Shown piece after piece: positions 9,186 to 54,927 of a stretch of 64,000 nt of DNA. How positions within the stretch are numbered: the stretch's first letter is position 1; each line of letters opens with the position of its first letter. A program made the position numbers and the translations under genes. The DNA is from an uncultured Bacilli bacterium (lineage in GTDB: Bacteria > Bacillota_I > Bacilli_A > RF39 > UBA660): positions 3,818 to 67,817 of the forward strand of contig CAKPSB010000003.1 of assembly GCA_934183155.1 (NCBI GenBank), written 5' to 3'. The notes beneath the pieces are model-generated. The model did no database searches. It saw nothing but the letters and a program-made list of their open reading frames with translations, and was not told the origin of the DNA.

Positions 9186-10631
9186 CTATAAAGTCTTATA
9201 TAATTTATATTTTTTTAAAATTAAAAATAACATATCAAAATTAATTATTTGAAGATTATCAATTGCATCCTTGTTAGAATGAAGATGAACTCTCATAAGT
9301 CTATACTTAACTACCGTATCCAACGTTAACTGCATATTTATAATATTTAAATTATCAACAAGATCTTCTTCATATGTATGCATATTCTTTTTAACTAATA
9401 TTGGATTATCTACTACACTTTTAATACTTAATTTTACTTCGTCCTTTTTTGAAATTGCATTAACAAGATCACTAGACTTAATAATTCTTGGTTTAACACT
9501 TATAACTATTTTTTCAGGTTTTAGCAAATCAGGCTTCTTTTTTATATCAATATTATCTAAATTTAAACCAGCCAAATCAGTAGATTCTTTTAAAATACTC
9601 TTAGTTTTAGATGATTTATTATTCCTATATGAATCTTTTTCTAAGCCCTCAGAAGGCTTTAAATTAAATATTTTATCAAAAGAAGATACTTTCTTATCAG
9701 TTTTCAAAGGATTCTCTGTTTTCAAAACAAATTCCCTTTCAGCAAGCATCTCAGAAGGCTTAACAATTATTTTTGGACTTACAACCGGTTTTGCTTTAAA
9801 AATAGAGATATTATTTTCTTTTAAAAGGATTTCTTTATCATTTAATTTTTCCGTTGGCTTAATTATAATTTTAGAATCCTTTTTATTAGAAACAGGTGTA
9901 TTTAATTTAACAGCTTCTAATTTTTCAATATCAAATTTAAACGGTTTTAATTTCAACTTATTTGATTTTTTAGAAACTACATTTATATAACCAACTTTAG
10001 AATTATCAATTTTTAAAGTTTTTATAGGCATTTTTTTATCTTCTAAAGAAATACTCTGACCACGTTTATCTAAAATATCTGTCACTTTATTGATAGCATT
10101 TATAATCAAAATAGCCAAAATTTGAAGTGTAAAAACGCCAATTAAAAGTTGCATTAAAGTTAAAACATCATTATTAACATATAAAGCATTATCTTTATAA
10201 ATATTTATATTTTTAGTTTTAACAATAGTTAATATTAAAACAAATAATAACTGAACTAAAGCAAAAGAAAAAATATTAATAATTTTATTTATCTTATACA
10301 TCTTTTTACTTAAAAAGCTTATCAAAGCAATAATTGAACAAGCAACTACAACAACAAAAAGTGTTATAAAATTAGGAAAATACAATGTCATAAATAAGCC
10401 ATCCATCAAATTATCAAATAATTTAAATATAACATCTCCACCAATATATAAAACAAACAAAATAACTAACAAATATACAATAACAAAAGCTTTTTTACCA
10501 TGTTTTTTCTGTAATAACCATATAATTACTGGGACTAATAAAATTACAATAAAAAGTGGGTGTTCTAAAACATTATTAAAAAACACTTGAATTTTATCAA
10601 TAAGCGACAATTGTTTCATAAACCTTCCCAC
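9186..10631 (-). CDS. Membrane protein with a Lys-rich repetitive C-terminal region
   Basis: 481 aa. About 4-5 N-terminal TM helices. The C-terminus has degenerate KP(S/T)E(K/M)L…-type repeats. It sits 46 nt upstream of clpC. Confidence 0.5.
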   Translation of the reverse strand: MGRFMKQLSLIDKIQVFFNNVLEHPLFIVILLVPVIIWLLQKKHGKKAFVIVYLLVILFVLYIGGDVIFKLFDNLMDGLFMTLYFPNFITLFVVVVACSIIALISFLSKKMYKINKIINIFSFALVQLLFVLILTIVKTKNINIYKDNALYVNNDVLTLMQLLIGVFTLQILAILIINAINKVTDILDKRGQSISLEDKKMPIKTLKIDNSKVGYINVVSKKSNKLKLKPFKFDIEKLEAVKLNTPVSNKKDSKIIIKPTEKLNDKEILLKENNISIFKAKPVVSPKIIVKPSEMLAEREFVLKTENPLKTDKKVSSFDKIFNLKPSEGLEKDSYRNNKSSKTKSILKESTDLAGLNLDNIDIKKKPDLLKPEKIVISVKPRIIKSSDLVNAISKKDEVKLSIKSVVDNPILVKKNMHTYEEDLVDNLNIINMQLTLDTVVKYRLMRVHLHSNKDAIDNLQIINFDMLFLILKKYKLYKTL

Positions 10632-10632
10632 C

Positions 10633-12291
10633 TCACTTTATTAATTTATCACATTTAGGAATTTTTTTTAATACCTTCTGCTTAATTTTTTCAATCATCT
10701 CTGTTCCAACAATATCCGCTAAAGTATTTGACTTATAAGCAACTATAAAATATATTAAAATACCAACAATACCATATAAAGCTATATAAGCCATCGAAAC
10801 ACCCCTAGATACACTATAACATGGAATAAATAATTTTATAATTGCCAAACCAAGCACCATAATAATAGTACACATAATAACTTTTATAAATGTCCTAATA
10901 GTTTTCAAATAACTAATATTAGTTTTTTTCTTAACCTGTTTTAAAAGCCAAATAAGTTCTATTGTATCAATTAAAATATTCAAAGATATTGTAGCATAAT
11001 AAGCTTCCAACCCGATTTTATTAAATAAATTCATCATAGGAATATTTAAAACCATTTTTGCTATCAAAGCTCCAACTAGTGCTGTAATAGTTGCTTTAGT
11101 ATTATTCATTGATTGATTAGTATTAACAGACACCGAACATATAGCTAATGGAATTTGAGATAATATAAGTAAACTAAATATAGAACTATTAAGTTCATCA
11201 AATCCATAAAATACTGTCCATACAGCTTTAGACATAAAACTAATACCAACAGAAAGAGGGATAACTACTAAAAATAAAGTTTGTAAAGCCTGTGTAATTT
11301 TAGCATTAACTTCTTTATAATTTTTAACAGCATAACTTGAAGCTATAGTTGGAATCAAACTAGTAATAATACCCGTAGAAATAGCCATAACAATCATATT
11401 TAGCTTAGAACCCCAAGTTTCAATAACACTAACAACATTCTCACTTATTTTAGCCGTATAACCAAGTCCAACAAGACCTTTAACAACCGTAAAAACATCA
11501 ACCAAAACAAAAACTGACTCTAAAAGTGATATAACCACAAAAGGTAAAGCATAAAAAATAATTTTACGAATCAAATCATTTCTAGTTATTTTTACTTCTT
11601 CAGCTTTTGCTTTTTCATTTCTTTTTAAATCTTTACTTTTTTTAATTTTAATAAAAACATAAAAATAAGCAACTAAAGCTCCAACTGTAGCCCCAAAAAC
11701 AGAAACCCCAACAGCTGTTTTCAAAGATAAATGAAATACTTTTAAAGTTAAAAAACTACCAAATAATATAACAAAAACTCTCGCTAACTGTTCTAAAATA
11801 TCCGCAATAGAAGATACTTGCATAATTTTATGTCCTTGTAAATAGCCTTTAGAAACGCTTAAAAACGGAACAACTAAAATAGCCGTAGATATTATTCTAA
11901 TAACCATTGCAACATCTTCCGTAGTATTGCCACCTTTAACACCGCCAATAATTAAATAAGCAACATCAGGGGCAAAAATAAATAATACTAAAAACGATAT
12001 AACACATAAAATAGATATTATTTTAAGACCAATTTTAAAAGTTCGCTCTTTAGTATGATAAAAACCCATTTCATTATATTCTGACACTACCTTACTCATT
12101 GCAACAGGTATACCAGAAGTTGCTAAATTCAAAAACACATTATAAATAGAATAAGCATAACTATACAAAGCTCCACCTTGAGCACCAATAATTGCATAAA
12201 ATGGAATAACATACACCAAACCTATAACTTTGCAAATAACAATTCCAATAATTGAAATTGCTGCCCCCTTTAAAAAACCAGTTTTTTTCAT
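10633..12291 (-). CDS. MOP-superfamily polysaccharide/lipid II flippase (SpoVB/MurJ-like). Probable start is MKKTGF at 12291.
   Basis: About 14 TM segments. The N-terminus MKKTGFLKGAAISIIGIVICKVIGLVYVIPFY is typical of SpoVB/MurJ-like proteins. Confidence 0.7.
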   Translation of the reverse strand: MKKTGFLKGAAISIIGIVICKVIGLVYVIPFYAIIGAQGGALYSYAYSIYNVFLNLATSGIPVAMSKVVSEYNEMGFYHTKERTFKIGLKIISILCVISFLVLFIFAPDVAYLIIGGVKGGNTTEDVAMVIRIISTAILVVPFLSVSKGYLQGHKIMQVSSIADILEQLARVFVILFGSFLTLKVFHLSLKTAVGVSVFGATVGALVAYFYVFIKIKKSKDLKRNEKAKAEEVKITRNDLIRKIIFYALPFVVISLLESVFVLVDVFTVVKGLVGLGYTAKISENVVSVIETWGSKLNMIVMAISTGIITSLIPTIASSYAVKNYKEVNAKITQALQTLFLVVIPLSVGISFMSKAVWTVFYGFDELNSSIFSLLILSQIPLAICSVSVNTNQSMNNTKATITALVGALIAKMVLNIPMMNLFNKIGLEAYYATISLNILIDTIELIWLLKQVKKKTNISYLKTIRTFIKVIMCTIIMVLGLAIIKLFIPCYSVSRGVSMAYIALYGIVGILIYFIVAYKSNTLADIVGTEMIEKIKQKVLKKIPKCDKLIK

Positions 12292-12298
12292 AAAACAC

Positions 12299-12466
12299 CT
12301 ACCTATAAACAATTAACGCTGAAAAACAATATATTTGTTCTTCAAAAGCAAATGCTGATACCGAAAATTTTATATCAATTATCTCAGGATCTTCTTCTAA
12401 AATAAATTTATTAATAGCATTTTCCAAATCCTTCTCATGACCTTCATCAAAAACTTTTACTTTCAT
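12299..12466 (-). CDS. cse60: Small sporulation protein Cse60-like (55 aa). It is absent from the ORF track because it is under 60 aa.
   Basis: The minus-strand translation is MKVKVFDEGHEKDLENAINKFILEEDPEIIDIKFSVSAFAFEEQIYCFSALIVYR. From memory this matches the Cse60/YteV pattern (VKLFDExHEKDLE…YCFSA.IVY). It has its own RBS (GGTGG), and a terminator hairpin of the upstream gene lies just before it. Confidence 0.5.
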   Translation of the reverse strand: MKVKVFDEGHEKDLENAINKFILEEDPEIIDIKFSVSAFAFEEQIYCFSALIVYR

Positions 12467-39995: not shown

Positions 39996-42755
39996 CTAAC
40001 TCCTAATAAATTTCCATTTTTGAGCATTACTCCTATTACAAGTATAACCCCAAACATTTGCGCCACTACTATTTCCAGATGCATCAACACATAAACCATC
40101 AATATTTTTAAACTCATAATAATCATTTTCAACATTACTTATATAGTAATGCCCACCATGATAATAATGAAAATTCCAAGTTACAATGTTAGTTTTAGAA
40201 GTGCTAGAATTACCAGCAACCCACAAATACTGACTACCATCTACTTGTGATTGAAAATTATAAATAATATTACTATTTTCTATTCTATTAGCCATAACTT
40301 TCCACTTTTGAGCACTTGAACTATTACCAGTATACATTTGAACATTAGTTCCGTTTGCAGCAGCTGCTCCATAAACATCAATTTTTAAATTATTATTTAA
40401 AGCTGACGCTATACTATAAGTATTAGTTGTCGTTGTAAATTTCTTACTACTATCATATAAAGTTCCACTTATAACTATAATATTATTATATAAAGTATTT
40501 TGACTATTTGTATTAGCACTTATATTTATAGAACTACCGCTTATACTAGTCTGACCTCCTTCAATAGTTATACCACCACTTCTAATTTTTTCTGAGCTAT
40601 AACCATTTTTTAAAGTAACATTATCATCAATATTAAGTATACCATTAGTATATATAAGTGACCCTGTTGCTTGAACACTATTACCATCCAAAACAATATT
40701 TTTTAAAGTAAGTGTCCCATTTTCAAAATCAACCATACTTTCATTAACAAAACTAGAACTTCTTATTAAAGAATAAGTTCCATTATAACTAGTTAAAGTT
40801 ATTTTTTTATTATCTGTTAAAATAAGCTTTTCAGTTATTCCAATATCACTCATCAAATGAATTGTCGCTCCATTTTTAGCACTATCATACGCTTTTTTAA
40901 TTGAATAGAAAGGATGAGACATAGTACCATCACCATCTAAATCACTTCCAGCAGAAGAAACATAATAATCACTCATAGCAATTTGACTTTCATCCTGTTT
41001 TATATGTCTTCCTTCAGAAACTTCTTTAAAATTAGAAGTACTATCAACTAAACTAAATGAATTACTATTACCAGCCACATATGTGTTATTTTGATAATAT
41101 TTTCTGCCATCAGCATAATAATGCCATACACCTATTTCTTCTAAATTATATTCTTGTCCTAAATCAACCGTAACACATTGATTAACATAATTATCAGAAA
41201 TTCCATCAACATACTTATCTTCATCATCAATTATTCCATCAACAACAGTACTAAACGTTCCAGTACCATGAACCGAACTAGTAGCAAAATCACCAGTCAC
41301 ATTCTTACCTTTAGCAACGTTTACGCCATCACTAATAGCTTGAATTTCAATCCAATGATTATTACCATTCACTGAATTTCCACCAATACAATTTTTTACA
41401 TATCTAACATTTTTTATTTTAGCACTATCACTTGTTGGGTTACTACCTAAATAAGAAATTTTTGCCATACCATCTTGACTATTAACACTACCCTGCATAT
41501 CCGTATTTATAAAATATTTATTTGAAAAATGAATAGTTTGATTTGTATGTACACCACTAATATTTATAGCATTAACCCCAGCATAGCCAGAAATATATGA
41601 AGATCCGCCGCCACCACCAGCATGCCATTTGGCACCAGAGCCTCCATAATATCCACTACCGCCGCCGCCACCAACGTGGCCATCGGAATAAGCTGCGCCA
41701 TTTCCGCCTTTACCAAAACTTCCAGCCGTTCCACCTGTACTATTAGCCTTACCACCTTTAGTTTGATAAGCCTTTAAACCAGCATAAGTATTTGCTACCA
41801 CATTAGCATAAACCTTTCCATTATTACCAATTAAAGTACCAGCTTCACCACCATGAGCTCCATTAGAATTATTAGACACGCCACCACCACCAGCAGCAAC
41901 CATAATTCTACTTTTTAAAGAAGTAGCATCATTCCAAGCACCTCCAGTTAATCTAACATCAGTAGCTCCACCACCACCACTTTTCGAAGAACTCCAACCA
42001 GTTCCACCACCATTAAAAAGATTTTCTCTAGTACCTGAAGCTCCTACATAAACATATAAATTTTGTCCTCTGTCTAAATAAACTTCTCCTTTAGTATAAG
42101 AGCCTAATCCTCCAGAATTGTCACTAGATCCACCTTGTGCACCCCAAAGCTCAATCTTATAATAACCTGGCATCTTCGTATAATATGTCTGAACATCACC
42201 TGTATACGTATACTCTTTAGTCTCTAAACTATTATCATATTTTGTATCAATAGCTATTGTTGCAAAAGTTCCATTTTTAAATTTAGCAAACAAACGGCCT
42301 TTATTTTTAATTATTTGAGCATCGACTTTACTAATAAAATCTCTTAAATCTTGTTTTAAAACAGCATCTTCTGTTGTTTTAACATAATCTTGAATAACAC
42401 TTAAATCTGATGAAGTGTAAATTAAAGTTTCTACCCCTGTTTGACTCATAATATTATCACAAAATCCAGTACTTTTAAGACCAATACTATCATTACAAGA
42501 ACCATTATTATAAACCATTAAATAAGGATTTCCTTTTATATAATTACCAAAAGGTTTATCCTGATTTTTTCTAAAATATTCACCTATTGATCCCAAATCA
42601 TAAACGCCCTCTACACTATTATAAGCATAACTGTTATTATAATTTATAACCAAATTTCTAAATTGAATAAATAAAAACATTAGAATAGTTAAAACAAACG
42701 TTGAAACTACTAATGACTCTGCTAATAAAAAACCCCGATTATTTACTCTTTTCAT
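39996..42755 (-). CDS. Giant (919 aa) prepilin-signal protein. It has a Gly-rich region, a beta-helix domain and a C-terminal ricin-B lectin. It is a putative pilus-displayed adhesin or carbohydrate-binding protein.
   Basis: N-terminus MKRVNNRG|FLLAESLVV… is a prepilin-peptidase site with Glu+5. Residues ~200-400 are GGxG-rich (GGGGSGYYGGSGAKWHAGGGGGSSY). The segment …DLDGDGTMSHPFYSIKKAYDSAKNGATIHLMSD… is a classic right-handed beta-helix cap. The C-terminus has QxW repeats (SAQKWKV…, NAQKWKFI), i.e. a ricin-type beta-trefoil. RBS AAAGGAG. Confidence 0.6.
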   Translation of the reverse strand: MKRVNNRGFLLAESLVVSTFVLTILMFLFIQFRNLVINYNNSYAYNSVEGVYDLGSIGEYFRKNQDKPFGNYIKGNPYLMVYNNGSCNDSIGLKSTGFCDNIMSQTGVETLIYTSSDLSVIQDYVKTTEDAVLKQDLRDFISKVDAQIIKNKGRLFAKFKNGTFATIAIDTKYDNSLETKEYTYTGDVQTYYTKMPGYYKIELWGAQGGSSDNSGGLGSYTKGEVYLDRGQNLYVYVGASGTRENLFNGGGTGWSSSKSGGGGATDVRLTGGAWNDATSLKSRIMVAAGGGGVSNNSNGAHGGEAGTLIGNNGKVYANVVANTYAGLKAYQTKGGKANSTGGTAGSFGKGGNGAAYSDGHVGGGGGSGYYGGSGAKWHAGGGGGSSYISGYAGVNAINISGVHTNQTIHFSNKYFINTDMQGSVNSQDGMAKISYLGSNPTSDSAKIKNVRYVKNCIGGNSVNGNNHWIEIQAISDGVNVAKGKNVTGDFATSSVHGTGTFSTVVDGIIDDEDKYVDGISDNYVNQCVTVDLGQEYNLEEIGVWHYYADGRKYYQNNTYVAGNSNSFSLVDSTSNFKEVSEGRHIKQDESQIAMSDYYVSSAGSDLDGDGTMSHPFYSIKKAYDSAKNGATIHLMSDIGITEKLILTDNKKITLTSYNGTYSLIRSSSFVNESMVDFENGTLTLKNIVLDGNSVQATGSLIYTNGILNIDDNVTLKNGYSSEKIRSGGITIEGGQTSISGSSINISANTNSQNTLYNNIIVISGTLYDSSKKFTTTTNTYSIASALNNNLKIDVYGAAAANGTNVQMYTGNSSSAQKWKVMANRIENSNIIYNFQSQVDGSQYLWVAGNSSTSKTNIVTWNFHYYHGGHYYISNVENDYYEFKNIDGLCVDASGNSSGANVWGYTCNRSNAQKWKFIRS

Positions 42756-46742: not shown

Positions 46743-47996
46743 CTATTTTTTAGCATTTAGTTTTTTGTCTCTATAAACTATAATACCAACACCACCAGCA
46801 ATAATTACTAAGCCTACACCTAAAATAATTAATGGAACACTAGCAGCAGTATTTGGAACATCAATATTAGTTCCACAATCCCATGCACCATAAAGTGTTA
46901 AATTATTATTTAAAGCAGTACCGTCAGTCCATTTACCAGTTAAATCATCTTTAGTAAACCAACCTTTAAATTTGCAATTTTCTTGTCTAGTAGTTAATTC
47001 ATTTTCTTGATCATATTTAGTACCTTTGTCAAAACAATTAGTACCAGGAGTTGGATCAGTCAAATTTGGATCAGGTTTAACATTACCAACAATAACATAA
47101 TTAACACAAACTCTTGGCTTATCAACTTTTGCAGTTAACTCAAATGATTTAGATAAATTATCATTGTCAGTATATAAAACTGCTAATCTTTGATAAGAAG
47201 AATCACTAGGTTGATAAATATACGCTTTAGTGTTTACACCATTTGCTGAAACAATAACTTTAATAGTAGTAGTTTGACCTAAAGCATTAGCTGGAATTTT
47301 AACTTGGAATTTTTCTCCAGCATTAAATGTAGTTTTAGATTGACCTTGAGTATTAGTAATTACTGTACCAGTAGGAGCTCCGCTGACTGCAACATTATAA
47401 ACTGTTGTACCAGTTAAAGTTGGAGCAATTTCATTTGAAACAAAGTAATTGCCATCATTAGATAAAATCATATTACTATTACTTACATTAACTGATAAAG
47501 TTGATGCAGCATTAGCTTTAGCTGTTTTAGCTCCAGCTACTAAAGCCTTAATGTTATCTCTAATGCCATAAGGATCAGCAGAATTAGTAGTAAAATCAGC
47601 ACTTAAAGCACCAGATTGACCAGTATCAGCTAAATACCACCATAAAGCACCTTGTGTAATAAATCTATCCAAATCATTATTACCTTTGATTGATTTATAA
47701 GGATAACCATTTTCTAAGATATATCTAATACCATTATCTGCTTCTTTAACTAAATTAACATTGGTTGTTTTTTCAGGCCATTTTTTTTCTACATCCATAC
47801 AATAAGCAACTTTGCCATCGTTAGTTCTAAATTTAGCCCATTTATAATTTTCTCCAATATAAGATACCATTACTCCTTCTCTACTAATAGTAGGATTTTT
47901 AGGAGCAGCACTTACTGTAGATACACTCGTAACAGTTAAAACTGCTACAAGTAAAAATGTACAAATTATACCATAAAGTTTTTTCATAGTTTTCAT
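46743..47996 (-). CDS. Surface adhesin with thioester-domain (TQXA) motifs and a Listeria-Bacteroides (Flg_new) repeat. C-terminal membrane/cell-wall anchor with a non-canonical VPNTA motif.
   Basis: Signal peptide. Cys motif VAYCMDVEKKWP and Gln motif FITQGALWWY. C-terminal …KFKGWFTKDDLTGKWTDGTALNNNLTLYGAWD… (Flg_new-like). The tail is …DVPNTAASVPLIILGVGLVIIAGGVGIIVYRDKKLNAKK (sorting-signal-like). Confidence 0.5.
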   Translation of the reverse strand: MKTMKKLYGIICTFLLVAVLTVTSVSTVSAAPKNPTISREGVMVSYIGENYKWAKFRTNDGKVAYCMDVEKKWPEKTTNVNLVKEADNGIRYILENGYPYKSIKGNNDLDRFITQGALWWYLADTGQSGALSADFTTNSADPYGIRDNIKALVAGAKTAKANAASTLSVNVSNSNMILSNDGNYFVSNEIAPTLTGTTVYNVAVSGAPTGTVITNTQGQSKTTFNAGEKFQVKIPANALGQTTTIKVIVSANGVNTKAYIYQPSDSSYQRLAVLYTDNDNLSKSFELTAKVDKPRVCVNYVIVGNVKPDPNLTDPTPGTNCFDKGTKYDQENELTTRQENCKFKGWFTKDDLTGKWTDGTALNNNLTLYGAWDCGTNIDVPNTAASVPLIILGVGLVIIAGGVGIIVYRDKKLNAKK

Positions 47997-48013: not shown

Positions 48014-49801
48014 TTAACGTACCTTTGGCTTTACATCATTAAGATCTTCAACGCCATAAACTTTTTTATTTAATCTTCTCATAATTTCATCAACTTGTTC
48101 ATCGATAGTCTTATCTTTCTTACTATTTGAAAAAACTACGCTTTCATTATTAATCGTTTTTAGATCATCAACTGACTTATCTTTATCAGTTTTATTCTTT
48201 TTTCTTTTTCTTTCAGCTTCAGATAAAGCTGCTGCACCAATACCAGCTAATATTCCAGGCAAAACATTTGCCTCATCACCAGTTTGTGGTAAATTTCCTT
48301 GAGGAGTAACTGGAACAGATGGTTGTTCTGGCGTATTAGGAATATCTGGAGTATCAGGAGTGTCAGGCTTTGGCTTATCGCCAGGATTCTCTGGTTCCTT
48401 AGGATTGTTATCATCATGAGATGGTTTTAAGCTTGGAGTTGCATCAGGATTTTCTGATGTTTTTTTATTTTCTTCTAATTGATCAGAAACACCTGCAACA
48501 GTAGCAACATAGTTCTCACCTTTATATTTAAAAGTATAACTATTGCCATCAACAGTCTCAACATCATAATTTCCAAAATATGAATGTCTAACATCATCTT
48601 CCATATTGTCAGTTGGTGCATCTGGTAAAGCTACCAAATTGACTATTGCATCAGCTGGTATTTTACCTTCAGCTTGTAAACGTGAAACTAAATCTTGAAA
48701 TTGATTATTTGAAAGGCCAACACCGCCTACTGCTAAATAATAAACTCCCTCATCTTGTAAAATAACATATTGATTATCCCCAACAACAATTTTGTTTTCT
48801 GAAACAACTTGATCATTTTTATTTTCACTATCTTGAACATTAGTGTTGTTCTGTTCCTTATTTTCAGTACTTTGAGTTAATATAACATTGCCATCTTCAT
48901 CTTTAATAATTGCTGTGCCATTCTCATCATAATCAACAGAATAACCAGTATCAGCAATTTTGCCAGATTGACCAGTTTTAATAATATTTTCAAAATCATA
49001 TGCGGTAACATTACCTGATGAAATATCAACACCAGCATCTACTAATTGTTGAGCTAAAACCTCAGGAGCAGGAATATTACCAATTACTATTAATTGTCCA
49101 TCTTTTTCAATAAGATCATAACCATCAAAGTGTTTTACACTAGACTTTTGAATATTTTCATTAGTTACTTGCTCTTGTGTATTTGAAATATTACTTTCTA
49201 AAACATCTTCTACCGTATTTGTTTTAGTGCTTTCAGCTGGAGCAACTTCATCTTGTGTCTCAGCAGGTGTAACTTCAGAAGCGTTTTCAGCTGGAGCAAC
49301 TTCATCTTGAGTCTCAGCAGGTGTAACTTCAGAAGCGTTTTCAGCTGGAGCAACCTCATCTTGAGTCTCAGCAGGTGTAACTTCAGAAACATTTTCAACT
49401 GGAGCAACCTCATCTTGAGTCTCAGCAGGTGTAACTTCAGAAACATTTTCAGCTGGAGCAACCTCATCTTGAGTCTCAGCAGGTGTAACTTCAGAAGCAT
49501 TTTCAGCTGGAGCAACTTCATCTTGCGTCTCAGCAGGTGTAACTTCAGAAACATCTTCAGCCGGAGCAACATAAGTCTGCTCTAAAGTAGTAGGTGTAGT
49601 TGTATCAATAATTGCTGGAGCTTCCTCAGCTAACGCTTTACCAGGACTCATAATAGTAGCTAAAGCTGTCGCAACAGAAAATCCACCAATCAATACTCTA
49701 TTTCTTTTTTCTCTTAAAAAAGCACGTAATTTTTCAAGAGAACCGCTATTTAAACTAGCTGAATTAAATTTTTCTCTAAATAATTTAAATTTCATAAACA
49801 T
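48014..49801 (-). CDS. Repeat-containing surface protein with an LPQTG sortase motif
   Basis: Signal peptide. It has 7-8 copies of a 16-aa acidic repeat (EVTPAETQDEVAPAEN[AV]S). A Pro-rich stalk is followed by …QGNLPQTGDEANVLPGILAGIGAAALSEAERKRKKNK…. An unusual 55-aa hydrophilic extension follows the putative sorting signal. Confidence 0.55.
   Translation of the reverse strand: MFMKFKLFREKFNSASLNSGSLEKLRAFLREKRNRVLIGGFSVATALATIMSPGKALAEEAPAIIDTTTPTTLEQTYVAPAEDVSEVTPAETQDEVAPAENASEVTPAETQDEVAPAENVSEVTPAETQDEVAPVENVSEVTPAETQDEVAPAENASEVTPAETQDEVAPAENASEVTPAETQDEVAPAESTKTNTVEDVLESNISNTQEQVTNENIQKSSVKHFDGYDLIEKDGQLIVIGNIPAPEVLAQQLVDAGVDISSGNVTAYDFENIIKTGQSGKIADTGYSVDYDENGTAIIKDEDGNVILTQSTENKEQNNTNVQDSENKNDQVVSENKIVVGDNQYVILQDEGVYYLAVGGVGLSNNQFQDLVSRLQAEGKIPADAIVNLVALPDAPTDNMEDDVRHSYFGNYDVETVDGNSYTFKYKGENYVATVAGVSDQLEENKKTSENPDATPSLKPSHDDNNPKEPENPGDKPKPDTPDTPDIPNTPEQPSVPVTPQGNLPQTGDEANVLPGILAGIGAAALSEAERKRKKNKTDKDKSVDDLKTINNESVVFSNSKKDKTIDEQVDEIMRRLNKKVYGVEDLNDVKPKVR
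49225..49565. repeat. Tandem 48-bp coding repeat, about 7 copies, inside the LPQTG protein gene
   Basis: Near-identical units …cagctggagcaac(t/c)tcatcttg(a/t)gtctcagcaggtgtaacttcagaa(g/a)c(g/a)ttttc…. They also generate spurious repetitive ORFs in other frames (49210..49585). Confidence 0.8.
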
Positions 49802-50154
49802 CCCCCGTTTCCAACTAGAAAGATTGTATTAATTCCCTTTCATTTGTGGCATATAATAACACCAAACGTATTATTTGTCAAATTAACACAAAATTATTTT
49901 TATTTCTAATAAACTTGTTTAAAAACAACACCTCTAACACAATAAATTATAACAAATTTTAAGACATTTTTCCATACATATTAATATACTTTACAAAAAA
50001 TCGTAAAATATTTTAATAAAAAATAACTACTGCTTAAATAATTTAAATTTTTACATCTAAATCATAAAATATATACCATAATTTTAACTACTTTTTAAAG
50101 TTCTAAATATAACACCAATAACAAATATTAAAAAAGTCTCTCAATATGAAAGAC

Positions 50155-52089
50155 TTACTTAATTATTCTCTTAGAAGTAAAATAAGTAACAAGAAAATAA
50201 ATACCATAAATTAAAATTATAAAAATTGCTGTTATAATAATTGAAATAATACTCGTAGAAACACTAACAACCGCCAAAACTTTTCTTGCAAATAATATAC
50301 CAAATATAGAATGAAATACCCCTACAAATAAAGGAATCAAGAAAAATATAAGCGTTTGATCAAATAAAGTTTTATTTATGTTCTCATCACTAGCCCCTAT
50401 TTTTTTTAAAATAATATATTTTTCTTTATCATCACTAATATCTGATAAAGTTTTTAAAGCTAAAATAGCCGCTGATGTGATTAAAAATATACCACCCAAA
50501 TAAAATCCAATAAATATCATCATAGCGCCCATTCCTACACAAGAAGTATATATATCAATTTTTGTATTTTGATAATATGAGTCTTGATTTAAATATTCAA
50601 CATTAATACCCTTTTCAGCTTTTTCTTTATCACCTTTATAATTACCTGTTATATAAATAATGCTTTGTATACTATTTGATAAATTAGTATTATCAGGAAC
50701 AACAATTAATCCCATATTAGCTTTACTGCCACTCATTTCTATCATTCCTTCAACTACTTTATTATTCTTATTAACATAATCTTTTCCACCAATATTTAAC
50801 TTTACGCCTTTAGCTAAAGACTCATTATAATATTTTTTTAAAGCTTCATAATCAGTTACTAAAATAAACTCACCATTTTTTAAAGAAAGGCCATCTCTTT
50901 TATAAAGATTCATTAATTTATTATAATCAGAAAGCTTAATAACTGGTATACTGCGGGAGCTCATATAACTATTCATATTTCTAAATTTAAAATACTTATA
51001 TGCAGTCTCATCTGTTAAATAAGTCTTAAAAATAACTCTTTCCTTCAAAAAAACATTTGATTTTTTTAGAAATTCATCAATATTTTTGTTCTCAAGACCT
51101 ATTATTTGAATATCCGCTGGCGCGCCATAAATTAAATCTTTAGTCAAAGTCTCATTCATACTCCAAACAGACGAAAATAACGTTATTGTTAAAAATAAAA
51201 GTATACTAATAATGCTCATTGAAAAAACAGTAGAACTTATTTTACTATCAATTTGCTTTAACGTAAATATATTCAAATCCTTATAATATATTTTTTTATT
51301 TTTTTGAAATATTTTTAAAATAAAACCAGAAACACCAAAGAAAAATAAAAATGTGCCGATAATACCAAGTAAAATACTTAAACCAAATAAACCAATATCA
51401 AAAGTTTTTCTTAAAGCTAAATAATAAGCATATCCAAGCATAAAAATAGAAACGATAAATATTAAAATGGAAACTAAAGAATTTCTAATTTTAATATTTT
51501 CACTTTTTTTAGAAGCGTTTATCAAATTGATTAATTTATATTTAGTAACAACAAAAACATTAAAAATAATAACAATTAAATAAATTATTAAATAATAAAT
51601 TATTGTTTTAATCATTGCCTTATAAGAAAATACAAATTCAAATTTAGACATATCAACTTCAAACAATTTAGCCACAATAAGTGACATAAATTGTGATAAA
51701 AACAAACCTAAAGAAAGTCCAACAAACAAAGAAATAATTCCTATTAAAATAGTTTCTGAAAGTAATATTTTAGAAACATCCTTCTTACTCATTCCCAAAG
51801 TTAAATAAATACCAAATTCCTTTTTTCTTTTTTTAATTAAAAAATTAGAAGCATAAATTATCAAAAAGCCTAATATAATAGCCACAAAAATAGAAACTCC
51901 AGACAAAAACTGATTCATTAAATCCATAATTTGTTTTTGTGTAGAACTAAGTTTAAGCATAGCCTCCTGACCATCTAAAGCATTAAATACATAAAATATA
52001 GCAACCCCTAAAATTAAAGTTAAAAAATATACCGAATAATCTTTAAAACTTTTCTTAATATTTTTTAAAGCCATATTAAAGTGCATCAT
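50155..52089 (-). CDS. BceB-like ABC transporter permease (FtsX family, 10 TM)
   Basis: 644 aa. Duplicated FtsX TM bundles with a large extracellular domain between TM7 and TM8. It overlaps the ATPase gene. Confidence 0.75.
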   Translation of the reverse strand: MMHFNMALKNIKKSFKDYSVYFLTLILGVAIFYVFNALDGQEAMLKLSSTQKQIMDLMNQFLSGVSIFVAIILGFLIIYASNFLIKKRKKEFGIYLTLGMSKKDVSKILLSETILIGIISLFVGLSLGLFLSQFMSLIVAKLFEVDMSKFEFVFSYKAMIKTIIYYLIIYLIVIIFNVFVVTKYKLINLINASKKSENIKIRNSLVSILIFIVSIFMLGYAYYLALRKTFDIGLFGLSILLGIIGTFLFFFGVSGFILKIFQKNKKIYYKDLNIFTLKQIDSKISSTVFSMSIISILLFLTITLFSSVWSMNETLTKDLIYGAPADIQIIGLENKNIDEFLKKSNVFLKERVIFKTYLTDETAYKYFKFRNMNSYMSSRSIPVIKLSDYNKLMNLYKRDGLSLKNGEFILVTDYEALKKYYNESLAKGVKLNIGGKDYVNKNNKVVEGMIEMSGSKANMGLIVVPDNTNLSNSIQSIIYITGNYKGDKEKAEKGINVEYLNQDSYYQNTKIDIYTSCVGMGAMMIFIGFYLGGIFLITSAAILALKTLSDISDDKEKYIILKKIGASDENINKTLFDQTLIFFLIPLFVGVFHSIFGILFARKVLAVVSVSTSIISIIITAIFIILIYGIYFLVTYFTSKRIIK

Positions 52090-52846
52090 TCAAATCTCCT
52101 CCAAGGACAGTTACAACATCAATTATTTTATCAAAAAACTCTCTTCTACTATCGTCCCCCCTAATTAATTCATTAAAAATCTTACCATCTTTAATAAATA
52201 AAATTCTTGAACAATAACTAGCCGTAAAAGCATCATGCGTAACCATCAAAATAGTCGTTTTTAAATCAGCATTAAGTTCATTAATTTTTTCTAAAAGTAA
52301 TCTAGAAGATTTACTGTCTAAAGCTCCAGTTGGTTCATCCGCTAAAACTAACTTGGGATTAGTAATAAGCGCACGGCAACACGCTACCCTTTGCTTTTGA
52401 CCACCAGACAATTGATAAGGATATTTATTAATCACATCACTTATACCTAATTTTTTTGAAATTATTTCTATTTTTTTATCTATATTTTTATCCCTTTTAA
52501 TTGTCAAAGCTAAAGCTATATTTTCATAAGCCGTAAGTGTATCTAATAAATTAAAATCTTGAAAAATAAAACCTAAATCATTTCTTCTAAACTTATTCAA
52601 ATTCAAACCCTTTAATTTTGTTATATCAATACCATTCAATAAAATATGACCACTTGTAACTTTATCAATCGTTGATATACAGTTAAGCAAAGTTGTTTTA
52701 CCACTACCAGAAGCACCCATTATACCAACAAATTCACCTTCATAAACATCAAAAGAAATATTATCAATAGCCTTGGTTAAATTATTTTTATTTCCATAAT
52801 ATTTTTCAATGTTTTCCAAGCTTAAAATTTTACCCATTTCCATCAC
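52076..52846 (-). CDS. BceA-like ABC transporter ATP-binding protein
   Basis: GASGSGKTT, LSGGQKQR, LVLADEPT. Confidence 0.85.
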   Translation of the reverse strand: MMEMGKILSLENIEKYYGNKNNLTKAIDNISFDVYEGEFVGIMGASGSGKTTLLNCISTIDKVTSGHILLNGIDITKLKGLNLNKFRRNDLGFIFQDFNLLDTLTAYENIALALTIKRDKNIDKKIEIISKKLGISDVINKYPYQLSGGQKQRVACCRALITNPKLVLADEPTGALDSKSSRLLLEKINELNADLKTTILMVTHDAFTASYCSRILFIKDGKIFNELIRGDDSRREFFDKIIDVVTVLGGDLNDAL

Positions 52847-52910
52847 CTCAAAAACATTATATTAAAAAAATATTAATAAAACAATTTATTAATATTACCA
52901 AACATTACAA

Positions 52911-53237
52911 TTATGTAAGACTATTATAATGTTTTAACCCCTTATCAGTCACATTATAACCCTCACTAGCTTTAACTATTAAATTACTGTCAAGTAATTT
53001 ATTAAAAGCCCTAGACCAAGCTTCATCAATAAAAATAGTCTCATCACCAATAACTATTTTTTTATTATTCTTATTTAATGAGCAATTATTTAAAATAGCC
53101 TTTTCGAGCAAAAATACACTCTTTTCATTTAACTTAATTTTATTAACATTATCAAGCGAAATAGAAAAATCCATATTATCTAAACTAAATGTAAGTGGAT
53201 CATTCTCGCCCCTTTTACTTTTGGTAAGCATACCCAT
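52911..53237 (-). CDS. Hypothetical protein (108 aa) between the histidine kinase and the ABC transporter
   Basis: ORF track only. Confidence 0.35.
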   Translation of the reverse strand: MGMLTKSKRGENDPLTFSLDNMDFSISLDNVNKIKLNEKSVFLLEKAILNNCSLNKNNKKIVIGDETIFIDEAWSRAFNKLLDSNLIVKASEGYNVTDKGLKHYNSLT

Positions 53238-53239
53238 AA

Positions 53240-54271
53240 CTATTCATCTCCTCTAATATCATTCGTATATGAATTAATCGGAAAAACTATCTTAACCGTC
53301 GTTCCATTATCACTTTTGACAAAAACATTATTATTCAATTTATTACATAATTTTTTAACTAAATAAAGCCCTATTCCCGTCGAATTATATTTTTTTCTAC
53401 CATTTTTACCAGTAAAACCTTTATCAAATATTCTTGGGAGATCATCTTTATCAATTCCAATACCATTATCTTTAATCACTAAACAAACATCATTTTTATT
53501 TAAAACACTATATATTTCAATAATTGGTGCTTCTGCTATATATTTTATACTATTTGACAATATTTGATTAATAATAAATTCCATCCACTTACTATCAGTC
53601 TTAACCATCACATCTAAATCATGTATTTCTAACTTTATTTTATTTTCAATAAAATTATTTTTGTTTTTAATTATTACTTTATTAATAATATTTTCTAAAT
53701 TTACACTTTTAATCAAATAATCTTTTTCAGGGTTATAACTTCTCTCATAAAACAAAATAGTATCAATATAATTTTGAATTTTTAAAGACTCCTCCATTAT
53801 ACTACTTGTTATTCTATTTTTATTATTTTCACACATTAAAGTAATCGCTGAAAGCGGAAGCTTTACCTCATGAACCCAAAGTGTCATAAATTCTTCAAAA
53901 TCCTTCTGATTATGTTTAAATTTATTAATTTCTTCCAAAGCATATTTATTAATACATCTCAAAATATCTAATAATATTTTACTTTCTAAAAACATCGGTT
54001 TAATCATTTCTTGAACTAATAATTTGTTAAAATTCTTATCAACAATACTATATATTTCATCATAAAATCTTTTTTTTAAATTATAATCATATATCAAATA
54101 AACAAGAAAAGACAAAACCAATAAAAGTAAAACCATAACTATTAATACTAAATTAGAATTAAAAACAACAAGCAAAAATAAAATCAAAATAAAATTTATC
54201 AAATATAAAATAAGAAAAAATAACTTATCCTTTAAATAATCATTTAAATTCATAAAATGATATAACCCCAT
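53240..54271 (-). CDS. Sensor histidine kinase (BceS-like, intramembrane-sensing type)
   Basis: Two N-terminal TM helices with a minimal loop. H-box HEVKLPLSAI. HATPase motifs DNGIGI and GTGIGL. Confidence 0.75.
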   Translation of the reverse strand: MGLYHFMNLNDYLKDKLFFLILYLINFILILFLLVVFNSNLVLIVMVLLLLVLSFLVYLIYDYNLKKRFYDEIYSIVDKNFNKLLVQEMIKPMFLESKILLDILRCINKYALEEINKFKHNQKDFEEFMTLWVHEVKLPLSAITLMCENNKNRITSSIMEESLKIQNYIDTILFYERSYNPEKDYLIKSVNLENIINKVIIKNKNNFIENKIKLEIHDLDVMVKTDSKWMEFIINQILSNSIKYIAEAPIIEIYSVLNKNDVCLVIKDNGIGIDKDDLPRIFDKGFTGKNGRKKYNSTGIGLYLVKKLCNKLNNNVFVKSDNGTTVKIVFPINSYTNDIRGDE

Positions 54272-54927
54272 CCACGTCTAGTTTCAATAACATTTTTTAG
54301 ACCAATCTCTTCTAATTTTCTTCTAATTCGTGTAATATTTACAGTTAAAGTATTATCATCAACAAACATTTCACTATCCCAAAGATATCTCATTAAATCA
54401 TCTCTACTAACCACGCAGCCACGATGATTAATTAAATAAGACAATATAGAAAGTTCATTTTTAGTAAGTAATATATTTTTTCCATTATATTCAATCAAAC
54501 CTTTAAAAAGGTCTATTATCATTCCATTATATTCCAAAAAATTATTTCCACTACTCTTTCTCCTAAGTGCAGCTTCAATATGAGCAATTAAAACTTGCGG
54601 ATTATAAGGTTTAGTTATAAAATCATCTGCACCATAATTTAAAGATATAACCTCATCCATTTCACTGTTTCTACTAGTTACAACAATAATAGGAATATTT
54701 TTACTTTTTCTAACCTCTTTACATAATCTCATTCCATTAATTCCAGGAATATTTATATCCATTAAAATCAAATCAGCATTAGCTTTTAAAATATCATTCA
54801 ATGTATTTTCAAACTCATCAATAATTAATACTTCAAATCCATTATTTTTCAAAAAACAAGCGAGTTCTTCTCTTATTTTAAATTCATCTTCAATAAGTAA
54901 TATTTTATACATACCCATCACCAACAT
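54250..54927 (-). CDS. OmpR-family response regulator (BceR-like)
   Basis: Receiver domain (LIEDE…LILMDINIPG) plus a winged-helix C-terminus (…TRRGWGYIIL). Confidence 0.85.
   Translation of the reverse strand: MLVMGMYKILLIEDEFKIREELACFLKNNGFEVLIIDEFENTLNDILKANADLILMDINIPGINGMRLCKEVRKSKNIPIIVVTSRNSEMDEVISLNYGADDFITKPYNPQVLIAHIEAALRRKSSGNNFLEYNGMIIDLFKGLIEYNGKNILLTKNELSILSYLINHRGCVVSRDDLMRYLWDSEMFVDDNTLTVNITRIRRKLEEIGLKNVIETRRGWGYIIL

What the first reader, a model, noticed from the sequence alone, without database searches (positions are those of the whole stretch)
46743..47996. Thioester-domain (TQXA-type) adhesin with a non-canonical VPNTA sorting-like signal
The protein contains the paired hallmark motifs of internal-thioester (TIE/TED) adhesins: a Cys in V-A-Y-C-M-D and a Gln in F-I-T-Q-G-A-L-W-W. 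Both sit in the first ~120 residues after the signal peptide. Such Cys-Gln thioesters mediate covalent attachment to host or other targets. The C-terminus has a Listeria-Bacteroides (Flg_new) repeat. The tail is …DVPNTAAS + 23 hydrophobic residues + RDKKLNAKK. That looks like a sortase sorting signal, but with VPNTA instead of LPxTG, closer to the LPNTA recognised by class-D-type sortases. No sortase gene is in the window.
Basis: partly seen in the sequence, partly recalled or inferred. Interest (0 to 1): 0.6.

Follow-up and report, generated by a model that had tools for sequence, protein, structure and literature searches.

The report
Thioester adhesin with VPxT sortase signal
This gene from an uncultured gut bacterium encodes a small surface protein with a reactive internal thioester "warhead" for covalent sticking, and its unusual VPNTA tail belongs to a widespread but undescribed anchoring signal that in related bacteria sits next to its own dedicated sortase enzyme.

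Summary
The ORF is real: minus strand, 46743..47996, 417 aa. It is a class II thioester-domain (TED) surface protein. Support comes from Pfam TED at 41.5 bits, profile hits to BaTIE and EfmTIE86, and a Foldseek match at E 3e-18. An InlB-type B-repeat (Flg_new) module and a C-terminal sorting-type tail follow the TED.

Q115 (TQGALW) only flanks the bond. The thioester partner of C66 is the invariant Q269 (YQRLA), which aligns with the bond-forming Gln of both crystal structures.

VPNTA is not a one-off. V-P-x-T followed by a TM segment and a basic tail is as conserved as the thioester residues, across a clade with over 2000 representatives. In 56 of 61 informative loci from related low-GC gut Bacilli, the TED gene overlaps a dedicated sortase gene of about 215 aa. 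That sortase is class D/C-like and meets no curated class cutoff. Two of these loci have exact VPNTA tails.

In the window's own lineage (CAG:822 / Ca. Coprosoma-like MAGs, 1.3-1.5 Mb, walled) no sortase is adjacent. Instead the TED gene always follows an LPxTG protein that has an odd extension after its sorting signal and an invariant lysine. Whether this genome encodes a sortase could not be tested. Verdict: a new variant of a known kind, of moderate interest.

The parts
46743..47996 (-). Whole gene: 417-aa secreted class II TED / B-repeat surface protein with a VPNTA sorting-type tail (stop codon at 46743..46745)
   Evidence: ORF list and translation. Full-length homologs at 54-99% identity. 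AF2 model with mean pLDDT 81.
47907..47996 (-). Sec signal peptide, residues 1-30 (…TVSA|APKNP)
   Evidence: Read directly from the sequence: basic N-terminus, hydrophobic core, VSA-A cleavage site. The AF2 model has a helix at 2-23 followed by a low-pLDDT linker. A30, A31 and P32 are invariant or nearly so.
47121..47900 (-). Class II thioester domain, residues ~33-292: upper TED lobe plus an inserted beta-sandwich and a long P/Q hairpin
   Evidence: Pfam TED at 41.5 bits. Profile against PDB: 6fwv 1e-16, 6fwy 6e-10, 4c0z, 5dcq. Foldseek: 6fwv 3e-18; 6fwy 5e-16 with TM 0.64. pLDDT is about 90 across this region.
47799..47801 (-). C66, predicted thioester cysteine, in Y-C-M-D ([YFL]C-phi-zeta motif)
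   Evidence: Invariant in A1 and conserved in at least 90% of the diverse set A2. Aligns to BaTIE Cys71 and EfmTIE86 Cys88.
47640..47657 (-). TQGALW (residues 114-119): the TQxx-phi-W helix motif that flanks the bond but is not the bond partner
   Evidence: T114, Q115, A117 and W119 are invariant even in A2. The motif's role is described in PMC6194298.
47190..47192 (-). [quoted passage not shown]
   Evidence: Invariant in A1 and conserved in at least 90% of A2. BaTIE 'VQNT' (Gln266) and EfmTIE86 'VYQDA' (Gln292) align onto it. It lies at the turn of the long hairpin E243-263/E271-289.
46869..47114 (-). Flg_new / InlB B-repeat-like module, residues ~295-376, with four invariant cysteines (C297, C321, C341, C374)
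   Evidence: Pfam Flg_new at 28.5 bits. Foldseek hits to the InlB B-repeat: 2y5p with TM 0.75, 7pv9 at 4e-05. This is the most conserved block of the family.
46845..46859 (-). V380-P-N-T-A384: sorting pentapeptide of the VPxT class (predicted cleavage after T383)
   Evidence: V380 and T383 are invariant and P381 and A384 are at least 90% conserved in A1, while residues 376-379 and 382 vary. P381 and T383 are invariant in A2. The same motif class lies next to a sortase gene in 56/61 loci.
46746..46838 (-). Hydrophobic segment (residues 387-408) plus basic tail RDKKLNAKK (409-417): the membrane-retention part of the sorting signal
   Evidence: Read from the sequence. AF2 helix at 389-415. Weak match to NCBIfam LPxTATN and LPXTG_anchor models.
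48014..49801 (-). Co-transcribed upstream partner: 595-aa secreted protein. It has an 18-aa x6 repeat (DNA 49231..49570), a globular core, the invariant K459 (48425..48427) in a 'PDAEPGDKP'-type motif, a Pro-rich wall-spanning segment, LPQTG (48278..48292), a TM segment, KRKKNK, and then an extra ~60-aa tail
   Evidence: ORF. Gram_pos_anchor at 19.2 bits against a cutoff of 20. Present immediately upstream of the TED gene in every locus where upstream sequence exists. Conservation analysis. Tandem repeat. The pair occurs at 3 or more chromosomal positions.
49853..49881 (-). Best promoter-like site (TTGACA-17-TATTAT with TG), ~50 nt upstream of the partner ATG. There is a 17-nt gap with AGGAGG between the partner stop and the TED ATG, so a bicistronic operon is likely
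   Evidence: Promoter scan, 11/12 matches. Intergenic sequence read. These are consensus matches only.

Best explanation
The gene encodes a compact, Sec-exported surface adhesin of an uncultured, walled, low-GC gut bacterium (class Bacilli, CAG:822 / Ca. Coprosoma-like).

Its N-terminal two-thirds form a class II thioester domain. C66 and Q269 are predicted to autocatalytically form an internal thioester (losing NH3). The T114-Q115...W119 helix packs against the bond. A nucleophile on a target, typically a lysine amine on a host or microbial surface molecule, attacks the thioester and becomes covalently joined to Q269.

A B-repeat (Flg_new) module links the TED to a C-terminal sorting signal: VPNT|A, a 22-residue membrane segment and a basic tail. 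This signal belongs to a clade-wide VPxT[G/A/S/N/D] class whose cognate enzyme in related lineages is a dedicated class D/C-like sortase encoded by an overlapping downstream gene. I infer that a sortase encoded elsewhere in this genome cleaves after T383. It would then transfer the protein to the cell wall, or possibly to the co-encoded LPxTG partner.

Shown: the TED fold and its class, conservation of the bond residues, conservation of the signal, and the sortase linkage in relatives. Inferred: bond formation, sortase processing in this organism, and the identity of the target.
For: TED identity and class:
- Pfam TED at 41.5 bits.
- PDB profile hits to BaTIE at 1e-16 and EfmTIE86-TED at 6e-10.
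- The AF2 model has pLDDT ~90 over the TED.
- Foldseek top hits are the class II TEDs 6fwv (3e-18) and 6fwy (5e-16, TM 0.64), ahead of the class I TEDs Cpa and CpTIE.

Bond residues:
- C66 and Q269 are invariant in 51 family members and at least 90% conserved in 50 relatives at 26-42% identity.
- Both align to the crystallographic Cys/Gln pairs.
- All three motif definitions of PMC6194298 are met.

Sorting signal:
- V380 and T383 are invariant amid variable neighbours.
- About 108 of the best 150 clade representatives carry such a tail, nearly all of them VPxT[GASDN]+TM+basic, and none has LPxTG.
- G-ending variants pass the curated LPXTG_anchor cutoff.
- 56/61 informative loci have a sortase gene overlapping the TED gene's 3' end by 14-35 nt. 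This was confirmed by precomputed Pfam in Ca. Faecimonas.
- Exact VPNTA tails occur with an adjacent sortase in L108 and L110.
- The enzyme is a genuine sortase: Pfam 67-72 bits, TIGR01076 above its cutoff.

Organism is walled:
- MurJ, glutamate racemase, UppS, SepF/DivIVA and MurD, plus a BceAB-type module, are present.
- The partner protein has a canonical [LIVM]PxTG-D/E signal with a Pro-rich wall-spanning segment, which implies a working sortase pathway.
Against: No sortase gene was found in the window, its flanks, or about 50 related loci of the same lineage (831 kb, although these largely cover the same region). Presence of a sortase elsewhere in the 1.3-1.5 Mb genome could not be tested.

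The protein has almost no stalk or wall-spanning linker between its last domain and VPNTA. A peptidoglycan-linked copy might therefore be buried in the wall.

The curated TQXA and LPxTATN models score below their cutoffs.

Thioester formation and the target are untested.
Confidence: 0.66

Rival explanations
1. Same TED adhesin, but in this lineage the C-terminus is just a transmembrane anchor. The protein stays in the membrane, and the VPxT motif is an inherited relic or serves a structural role.
For: No sortase lies within 10 kb in any CAG:822-type locus, and none was found in 831 kb of lineage DNA. No spacer separates the B-repeat from the motif. AF2 predicts a plain C-terminal helix. A class II TED adhesin that works without sortase exists: TIEpLS20 (PMC8092201).
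Against: V380 and T383 are invariant, and P381 and A384 nearly so, across 44-99% identity while the adjacent residues drift. A relic would decay. The same motif class is sortase-coupled in 56/61 relatives. The neighbouring gene carries a canonical LPxTG signal, so a sortase is expected in the genome. TIEpLS20 lacks any such signal.
Confidence: 0.17
2. Two-protein covalent adhesin (a minimal pilus-like assembly). A sortase joins T383 of the TED protein to the invariant K459 of the co-encoded partner. The partner is in turn anchored to peptidoglycan through its own LPxTG, so it serves as stalk or base for the stalk-less TED.
For: The two genes are always adjacent and probably co-transcribed, and they move together between at least three chromosomal sites. 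They carry different sorting pentapeptides, as pilus tip and base subunits do (Cpa VPPTG, RrgC VPDTG). The partner has an invariant Lys in a conserved linear motif just before a Pro-rich tail. The TED protein lacks a stalk. Distant TED relatives carry SpaH/EbpB-like pilin C-terminal domains.
Against: The partner has no recognised pilin motif, CnaB domain or E-box, and no Pfam hit. Its AF2 model is unusable at pLDDT 55. No class C sortase is in the cassette. In the sortase-coupled relatives there is no partner gene at all, so direct wall anchoring is the simpler ancestral state.
Confidence: 0.12
3. A degenerate or non-reactive TED-fold protein (no thioester) that acts as a non-covalent binding or structural wall protein.
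For: The curated TQXA_dom model scores below its cutoff (17.3 vs 30.4 bits). No biochemical data exist for this clade.
Against: Both bond-forming residues and the whole TQxx-phi-W motif are invariant. 50/51 members hit TQXA_dom and 29/51 hit 'thioester-forming surface-anchored protein'. The fold match to bond-containing crystal structures is strong.
Confidence: 0.05

Closest known systems
Class II TED 'TIE' proteins: BaTIE (B. anthracis, PDB 6FWV), EfmTIE86 (6FWY), SaTIE (Miller et al. 2018, PMC6194298)
   Same: N-terminal signal peptide followed by a class II thioester domain with the [YFL]C-phi-zeta, TQxx-phi-W and phi-Q-zeta-phi-phi motifs. The Cys-Gln spacing is about 200 residues. A beta-sandwich insert is present. 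There is a C-terminal sorting signal.
   Different: Sequence identity is only ~16-19%. There are no CnaB isopeptide stalk domains: a single Flg_new/B-repeat module follows instead, and the whole protein is 417 aa versus 560-800+. The signal is VPNTA, not LPxTG (BaTIE has LPATG). The host is an uncultured commensal rather than a pathogen.
Cpa, the S. pyogenes pilus tip adhesin (class I TEDs; PDB 2XID, 4C0Z), with sortase Spy0129
   Same: A TED adhesin with a V-P-containing non-canonical signal (VPPTG) that is handled by a specialised, co-encoded sortase. The fold-level TED match is E 5e-4.
   Different: Cpa has class I TEDs inserted in isopeptide domains, and its sortase is class B. Cpa is polymerised onto a pilus shaft, whereas no shaft pilin or adjacent sortase is present here.
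LPxTATN / LPxTA substrates of class D sortases (Bacillus cellulosilyticus carbohydrases, PMC3617157; NCBIfam NF058670/NF058671; B. subtilis YhcS type)
   Same: The signal has Ala after the scissile Thr. The family consensus VPNTAAN resembles LPxTATN, and this is the best-scoring curated signal model (36/51 members). The sortase co-encoded in relatives has NF058671 as its second-best class model and C. perfringens SrtD as its best PDB match.
   Different: Position 1 is an invariant Val rather than Leu, and position 6 is A/S rather than T. All scores are far below the cutoffs (12-20 vs 32 bits; 56-67 vs 140 bits). Across the clade position 5 is free (G/A/S/N/D).
TIEpLS20, the conjugation adhesin of B. 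subtilis plasmid pLS20 (PMC8092201)
   Same: A class II TED at the N-terminus, with the Cys68/Gln256 pair inferred in the same way.
   Different: TIEpLS20 is plasmid-borne within a conjugation operon, has three CnaB-like domains, and has no sorting signal (it is sortase-independent). Here the gene is chromosomal among housekeeping genes and has a clear sorting-type tail.
InlB B-repeat / Flg_new (PF09479) modules of Listeria and Bacteroides surface proteins
   Same: The C-terminal module, residues ~295-376, matches by both sequence and fold.
   Different: Here it is a single copy with four invariant cysteines, fused directly (a 3-4 residue gap) to the sorting pentapeptide.

Membership tests
Thioester domain (TED, PF08341), bacterial TIE adhesins | Significant match to the TED family model | tested here: met
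   Pfam TED at 41.5 bits against a gathering score of 22. 50/51 family members hit TQXA_dom, though mostly below its cutoff.
Thioester domain (TED, PF08341), bacterial TIE adhesins | Bond-forming Cys in a [YFL]C-phi-zeta motif | tested here: met
   Y65-C66-M67-D68. Invariant and aligned to BaTIE Cys71 and EfmTIE86 Cys88.
Thioester domain (TED, PF08341), bacterial TIE adhesins | [quoted passage not shown] | tested here: met
   Y268-Q269-R270-L271-A272. Invariant and aligned to BaTIE Gln266 and EfmTIE86 Gln292.
Thioester domain (TED, PF08341), bacterial TIE adhesins | TQxx-phi-W motif next to the bond | tested here: met
   T114-Q115-G-A-L118-W119. T, Q, A and W are invariant even at 26-42% identity.
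Thioester domain (TED, PF08341), bacterial TIE adhesins | Cys and Gln side chains adjacent, and the thioester actually formed (-17 Da) | not testable with these tools
   Model coordinates are not exposed. This needs MS or a crystal structure.
Class II TED (Miller et al. 2018) | A ~75-residue beta-sandwich inserted before strands P/Q, with the Gln delivered by a long hairpin. Best structural neighbours should be class II rather than class I. | tested here: met
   The AF2 model has strands 166-263 plus a hairpin at 243-263/271-289. Foldseek gives 6fwv 3e-18 and 6fwy 5e-16 (TM 0.64), against class I 4c0z at 5e-4 and 5a0d at 1e-2. The Cys-Gln spacing of 203 compares with 195 and 204.
Sortase substrate (cell-wall sorting signal) | Tripartite C-terminus: pentapeptide, ~20 hydrophobic residues, basic tail; plus an N-terminal signal peptide | tested here: met
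   VPNTA + 22 hydrophobic residues + RDKKLNAKK, with signal peptide 1-30. The architecture is kept in all homologs.
Sortase substrate (cell-wall sorting signal) | Canonical LPxTG pentapeptide / match to a curated anchor model | tested here: not met
   The pentapeptide is VPNTA. LPXTG_anchor hits only 5/51 members and sits at the margin. The window protein has no TIGR01167 hit. G-ending relatives do pass (18.1 and 16.9 against 15.9).
Sortase substrate (cell-wall sorting signal) | Cognate sortase encoded in the same genome | not testable with these tools
   None was found in the window, its flanks, or related loci. The sortase profile search returned only other lineages. In relatives, 56/61 loci have an adjacent sortase.
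Sortase substrate (cell-wall sorting signal) | Cleavage after Thr and transfer to peptidoglycan | not testable with these tools
   Requires biochemistry.
LPxTATN signal / class D sortase system (NF058670, NF058671) | Signal HMM at or above 32 bits, with L at position 1 and T-N at positions 6-7 | tested here: not met
   12 bits here, with a best family E of 6e-4. The motif is V at position 1 and A/S at position 6. N at position 7 appears in many relatives but is S here.
LPxTATN signal / class D sortase system (NF058670, NF058671) | Associated sortase meets the class D model | tested here: not met
   TED-coupled sortases of relatives score 56-67 bits against 140 (NF058671) and 46-50 against 165 (class D). 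Class C scores 67-75 against 160.
Sortase-assembled pilus tip adhesin | Operon containing a class C (or pilus class B) sortase and a shaft pilin with a pilin-motif Lys | tested here: not met
   There is no sortase or recognisable pilin in the cassette. The partner has an invariant Lys but no pilin or CnaB signature. The partner fold is unresolved.

The most novel reading that the evidence does not exclude
The TED protein and its obligate upstream neighbour form a covalent two-protein adhesin. A sortase of the new VPxT-specific D/C-like family would ligate T383 of the stalk-less TED 'warhead' to the invariant K459 of the LPxTG partner, and the partner would then be wall-anchored. This would be a minimal heterodimeric pilus without pilin folds. 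The partner's conserved 60-90 aa extension beyond its own sorting signal might remain in the membrane after cleavage and act as a processing reporter or localisation element.
Probability: 0.12. Interest if true: 0.72.

Novelty: new variant of a known kind. Interest (0 to 1): 0.48.

Why it matters
Thioester adhesins are the only bacterial surface proteins known to bind targets covalently. Almost everything known about them comes from pathogens.

This work shows a very large, unstudied clade of compact class II TED proteins in uncultured, small-genome gut Bacilli of humans and animals. The clade has its own conserved anchoring code, VPxT[G/A/S/N/D]. In most lineages it also has a translationally coupled sortase that fits none of the curated classes.

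If that enzyme is specific for VPxT, three things follow:
- It defines a new sortase-substrate specificity.
- It gives an orthogonal tool for sortase-mediated protein ligation.
- It points to covalent adhesion as a core colonisation trait of these abundant but uncultured commensals.

The partner-linked variant in this window additionally offers a testable case of a possible two-protein covalent assembly.

Tried and rejected
1. An exact 77-nt DNA search of genome contigs found nothing. The species representative differs from the window.

2. Measuring the C66-Q269 and C66-Q115 distances in the AF2 model was not possible, because coordinates are not exposed. I relied on alignment to crystallographic bond residues instead.

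3. HMMER pairwise alignments placed the structural Gln one residue off (on Y268). Re-alignment against the diverse family put it on Q269.

4. The hunt for a sortase in the window's lineage failed on every route:
   - motif scan;
   - tblastn plus an unfiltered HMM over 831 kb;
   - extending both window ends by 10 kb;
   - a profile search of 5.8 billion proteins, which returned 5740 sortases but whose listed top 120 all came from other lineages;
   - a contig-length coincidence (2461 bp) that turned out to be two different contigs.

5. The LPxTATN / class D assignment was considered and rejected as membership, because scores are below the cutoffs.

6. A conjugation-adhesin role like TIEpLS20 was rejected. 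The context is chromosomal housekeeping genes with no conjugation genes.

7. A wall-less, Mollicutes-like host was rejected, because MurJ, MurD, glutamate racemase, UppS and PBP genes are present.

8. The partner's core was folded from a single sequence and gave pLDDT 55, which is unusable, so no fold search was run.

9. The third cassette gene and its homolog in the window gave only a weak DUF6057 hit.

10. Literature search found no paper describing VPxTA or VPNTA signals. Only RrgC VPDTG and Cpa VPPTG came up.
Full report
OBSERVATION. The ORF is real but lies on the minus strand (46743..47996, ATG, 417 aa).
- VAYCMD (C66) and FITQGALWW (Q115);
- a Flg_new match;
- the tail DVPNTAAS, 22 hydrophobic residues, then RDKKLNAKK.

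The window is 26.7% GC and contains no sortase. The gene has 236+ close homologs. The best 120 are all full length (about 414-428 aa) at 54-99% identity, and they come from uncultured 'Bacilli bacterium' gut MAGs. The Cys motif, the TQ motif and a VPxT[A/S] tail are conserved in essentially all of them.

WHAT THE N-TERMINAL DOMAIN IS. Several lines agree:
- Pfam TED scores 41.5 bits against a cutoff of 22.
- A family profile hits the solved TEDs: BaTIE 6fwv (1e-16), EfmTIE86-TED 6fwy (6e-10), Cpa 4c0z, and a streptococcal fibronectin-binding protein 5dcq.
- An AlphaFold2 model built on 51 sequences has pLDDT ~90 across residues 35-290.
- Its best Foldseek matches are the two class II TED structures, 6fwv at 3e-18 and 6fwy at 5e-16 with TM 0.64. 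These come ahead of the class I TEDs Cpa and CpTIE.

This is therefore a class II TED: an upper TED lobe, an inserted beta-sandwich, and a long hairpin that returns to the lobe, as described by Miller et al. 2018 (PMC6194298).

CORRECTION OF THE CYS-GLN PAIRING. The structural literature says otherwise.
- The TQxx-phi-W Gln and Trp only hydrogen-bond the Cys backbone and are not needed for bond formation.
- The experimentally observed pairs are BaTIE Cys71+Gln266 and EfmTIE86 Cys88+Gln292, with spacings of 195 and 204.

In this protein the invariant Q269 (Y-Q-R-L-A) lies 203 residues after C66. It sits at the turn of the hairpin 243-263/271-289. When the crystal-structure sequences are added to the diverse family alignment, their bond-forming Gln residues ('VQNT', 'VYQDA') align onto Q269. 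Their Cys aligns onto C66, and their TQ motif aligns onto Q115.

C66 and Q269 remain at least 90% conserved in 50 relatives that share only 26-42% identity. I could not measure distances, because model coordinates are not exposed.

THE C-TERMINAL MODULE. Residues ~295-376 match Flg_new (28.5 bits against 27) and the InlB B-repeat fold (2y5p, TM 0.75). This is the most conserved block of the family and carries four invariant cysteines. Only three or four variable residues separate it from the pentapeptide.

THE TAIL IS A MEMBER OF A CLADE-WIDE SIGNAL CLASS.
- Within the close family, V380 and T383 are invariant and P381 and A384 are at least 90% conserved. Residues 376-379 and 382 vary.
- A full HMMER scan of 1.84 billion representatives found 2004 relatives. 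About 108 of the best 150 (each at most 50% identical to the others) have such a C-terminal tail, and nearly all of these read V-P-x-T-[G/A/S/D/N] followed by a TM segment and a basic tail. Canonical LPxTG is absent.
- P381 and T383 are two of only eight invariant columns in the diverse alignment.
- Large non-TED proteins with RrgB-type isopeptide domains share the same Flg_new+VPPT[S/A] tail. The signal is therefore not tied to a single substrate family.
- G-ending variants pass the curated LPXTG_anchor cutoff, and their C-terminal domains resemble SpaH/EbpB pilins.
- For the window protein, the best curated signal model is LPxTATN, the class D sortase signal of Bacillus cellulosilyticus carbohydrases (PMC3617157). 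It reaches only 12 bits against a cutoff of 32.

LINK TO A SORTASE. A metagenome scan with the diverse alignment returned 80 loci.
- Of 61 loci with a complete TED gene and at least 750 nt downstream, 56 have a gene of about 215 aa on the same strand. Its start usually overlaps the TED stop by 14-35 nt.
- That gene encodes an N-terminal TM segment, IPKI, (I/L)(I/L)A(G/A)HSG and TTLTL(V/I)TC.
- It is a genuine sortase: Pfam 67-72 bits, and TIGR01076 at 57-63 bits against a cutoff of 39.
- It reaches no class cutoff: class C 67-75 against 160, 'LPxTATN-specific class D' 56-67 against 140.
- Its closest solved relatives are C. perfringens sortase D (4d70, 2e-16) and an Ebp class C sortase.
- The fifth motif residue in these coupled substrates is G (29), A (18), S, N or D. 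Two loci (L108, L110) have exactly VPNTA.
- Precomputed annotation in Ca. Faecimonas confirms the order TED+SpaA, then Sortase, then an unknown membrane protein, then PcrA.

This guilt-by-association is strong evidence that VPxT is a sortase signal with its own cognate enzyme family. Known precedents for V-P signals handled by specialised sortases are Cpa VPPTG (itself a TED adhesin) and RrgC VPDTG. I found no paper describing VPxTA signals or this TED-sortase pairing.

THE WINDOW'S OWN LINEAGE IS DIFFERENT. In CAG:822 / Ca. Coprosoma-type genomes (37 genome loci, three complete chromosomes of 1.34-1.54 Mb) no sortase lies within 10 kb. Instead, the TED gene is preceded in every locus with upstream sequence by a gene for a 440-775 aa protein, on the same strand with a gap of about 10-30 nt. 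That partner has:
- an extended signal peptide;
- acidic tandem repeats (54 nt x 6.3 in the window);
- a poorly conserved core;
- a conserved 'PDAEPG-D-K-P' motif with an invariant lysine (K459, 22/22);
- an (E/T)P-rich wall-spanning segment;
- [LIVM]PxTG-D/E, a TM segment and a basic patch;
- then, unusually, a further 60-90 residues that typically end in a short basic stretch, K-G-(R/K)-T-R in many orthologs.

The pair occupies at least three different chromosomal sites while staying together. A strong promoter-like site precedes the partner, and an AGGAGG precedes the TED ATG.

The organism is walled. MurJ, MurD, glutamate racemase, UppS, SepF/DivIVA and a BceAB-type module are present, and it also carries sporulation genes.

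MECHANISM (best estimate). The protein is exported by Sec, and C66-Q269 thioester formation is autocatalytic. A target amine then attacks the thioester, giving covalent adhesion. A sortase encoded elsewhere in the genome cleaves after T383, and the protein is transferred to the wall.

- Shown: the fold, the motifs, the conservation, and the sortase coupling in relatives.
- Inferred: bond formation, sortase processing in this organism, and the target.

The main rival is a plain TM anchor in this lineage. The strict conservation of V-P-x-T-A and the canonical LPxTG neighbour weaken that rival.

A more novel reading is sortase ligation of T383 to K459 of the partner. This would explain the obligate pairing, the two different pentapeptides, and the lack of a stalk. 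It has no direct support: the partner has no pilin signature, and its single-sequence model is unusable.

LIMITS. I could not determine whether this genome encodes a sortase. The last deep search returned 5740 sortases, but the 120 listed all came from other lineages.

VERDICT. This is a genuine class II thioester adhesin that NCBI already labels generically as a 'thioester domain-containing protein'. The Cys-Gln pairing does not, and the class D attribution is only approximate.

What is new:
- the VPxT signal class with its dedicated, unclassified sortase across a large clade of gut Bacilli;
- the partner-linked, sortase-unlinked variant seen here.

I rate it a new variant of a known kind, of moderate interest.

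Noticed in passing
window 48014..48200 (-), C-terminus of the partner protein; also L001-L038 upstream genes: The LPxTG partner carries a conserved 60-90 aa extension AFTER its complete sorting signal (LPQTG + TM + KRKKNK). The extension has a helical D/E-rich motif and typically ends in a short basic stretch, K-G-(R/K)-T-R in many orthologs. Ordinary LPXTG proteins stop a few residues after the basic patch, so the function is unknown.
   Followed up: partly
window 48425..48427 (-), K459 of the partner protein: An invariant lysine (22/22 orthologs) sits in a conserved linear motif '…S.DPDAEPG-D-K-P…' in an otherwise very poorly conserved protein, just before the (E/T)P-repeat wall-spanning segment. 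It is a candidate cross-link acceptor, but this is untested.
   Followed up: partly
L054-L128 (e.g. L062 10001..13048; L127 4506..7901): In related gut Bacilli (e.g. Ca. Faecimonas) there is a conserved cassette: TED(VPxT) gene, an overlapping ~215-aa sortase that fits no curated sortase class, then a conserved 280-440 aa membrane protein (weak DUF6057), then pcrA.
   Followed up: yes
window 9186..10631 (-): A homolog (tblastn E 5e-21) of the membrane protein that follows the sortase in the TED-sortase cassettes of other lineages. Here it sits next to murJ (10633..12312), about 36 kb from the TED gene. Pfam gives only a weak DUF6057/acyltransferase-3 hint.
   Followed up: partly
window 39996..42755 (-): A 919-aa protein with a strong match to the ALK/LTK glycine-rich domain (PF12810, 137 bits) plus C-terminal ricin-type lectin repeats. 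This is an unusual bacterial combination.
   Followed up: no
window 46869..47114 (-), residues 297, 321, 341, 374: Four invariant cysteines in the extracellular Flg_new/B-repeat module, which suggests two disulfides or metal binding. The InlB B-repeat is not known to me to have these. Their geometry could not be checked.
   Followed up: no
window 50155..54927 (-): A BceAB-type module: a 644-aa FtsX-family permease, an ABC ATPase, a histidine kinase and a response regulator, immediately upstream of the cassette. This is typical of sensing cell-wall-active peptides.
   Followed up: no
L004, L005, L029, L032, L037 (genome contigs record titles): Contigs carrying this Bacilli-type cassette at 49-83% identity are deposited under the names Oscillospiraceae, Sphaerochaetaceae and Muribaculaceae. 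These are probably binning or labelling errors in those MAGs.
   Followed up: no
L001 19050..21254; L043 8610..9994; L045 22478..23252: Sporulation-associated genes (SpoIIIAH, Germane, GerE, YabP, YqfD, YunB) occur in these 1.3-1.5 Mb reduced genomes, so the lineage may form spores despite its small genome.
   Followed up: no
L033/L035 (MAG RGIG5875) and L032/L037 (MAG SRP278969_co2_99): Some genomes carry two diverged paralogs of the TED/Flg_new protein (44-49% identity to the query) on different contigs.
   Followed up: no
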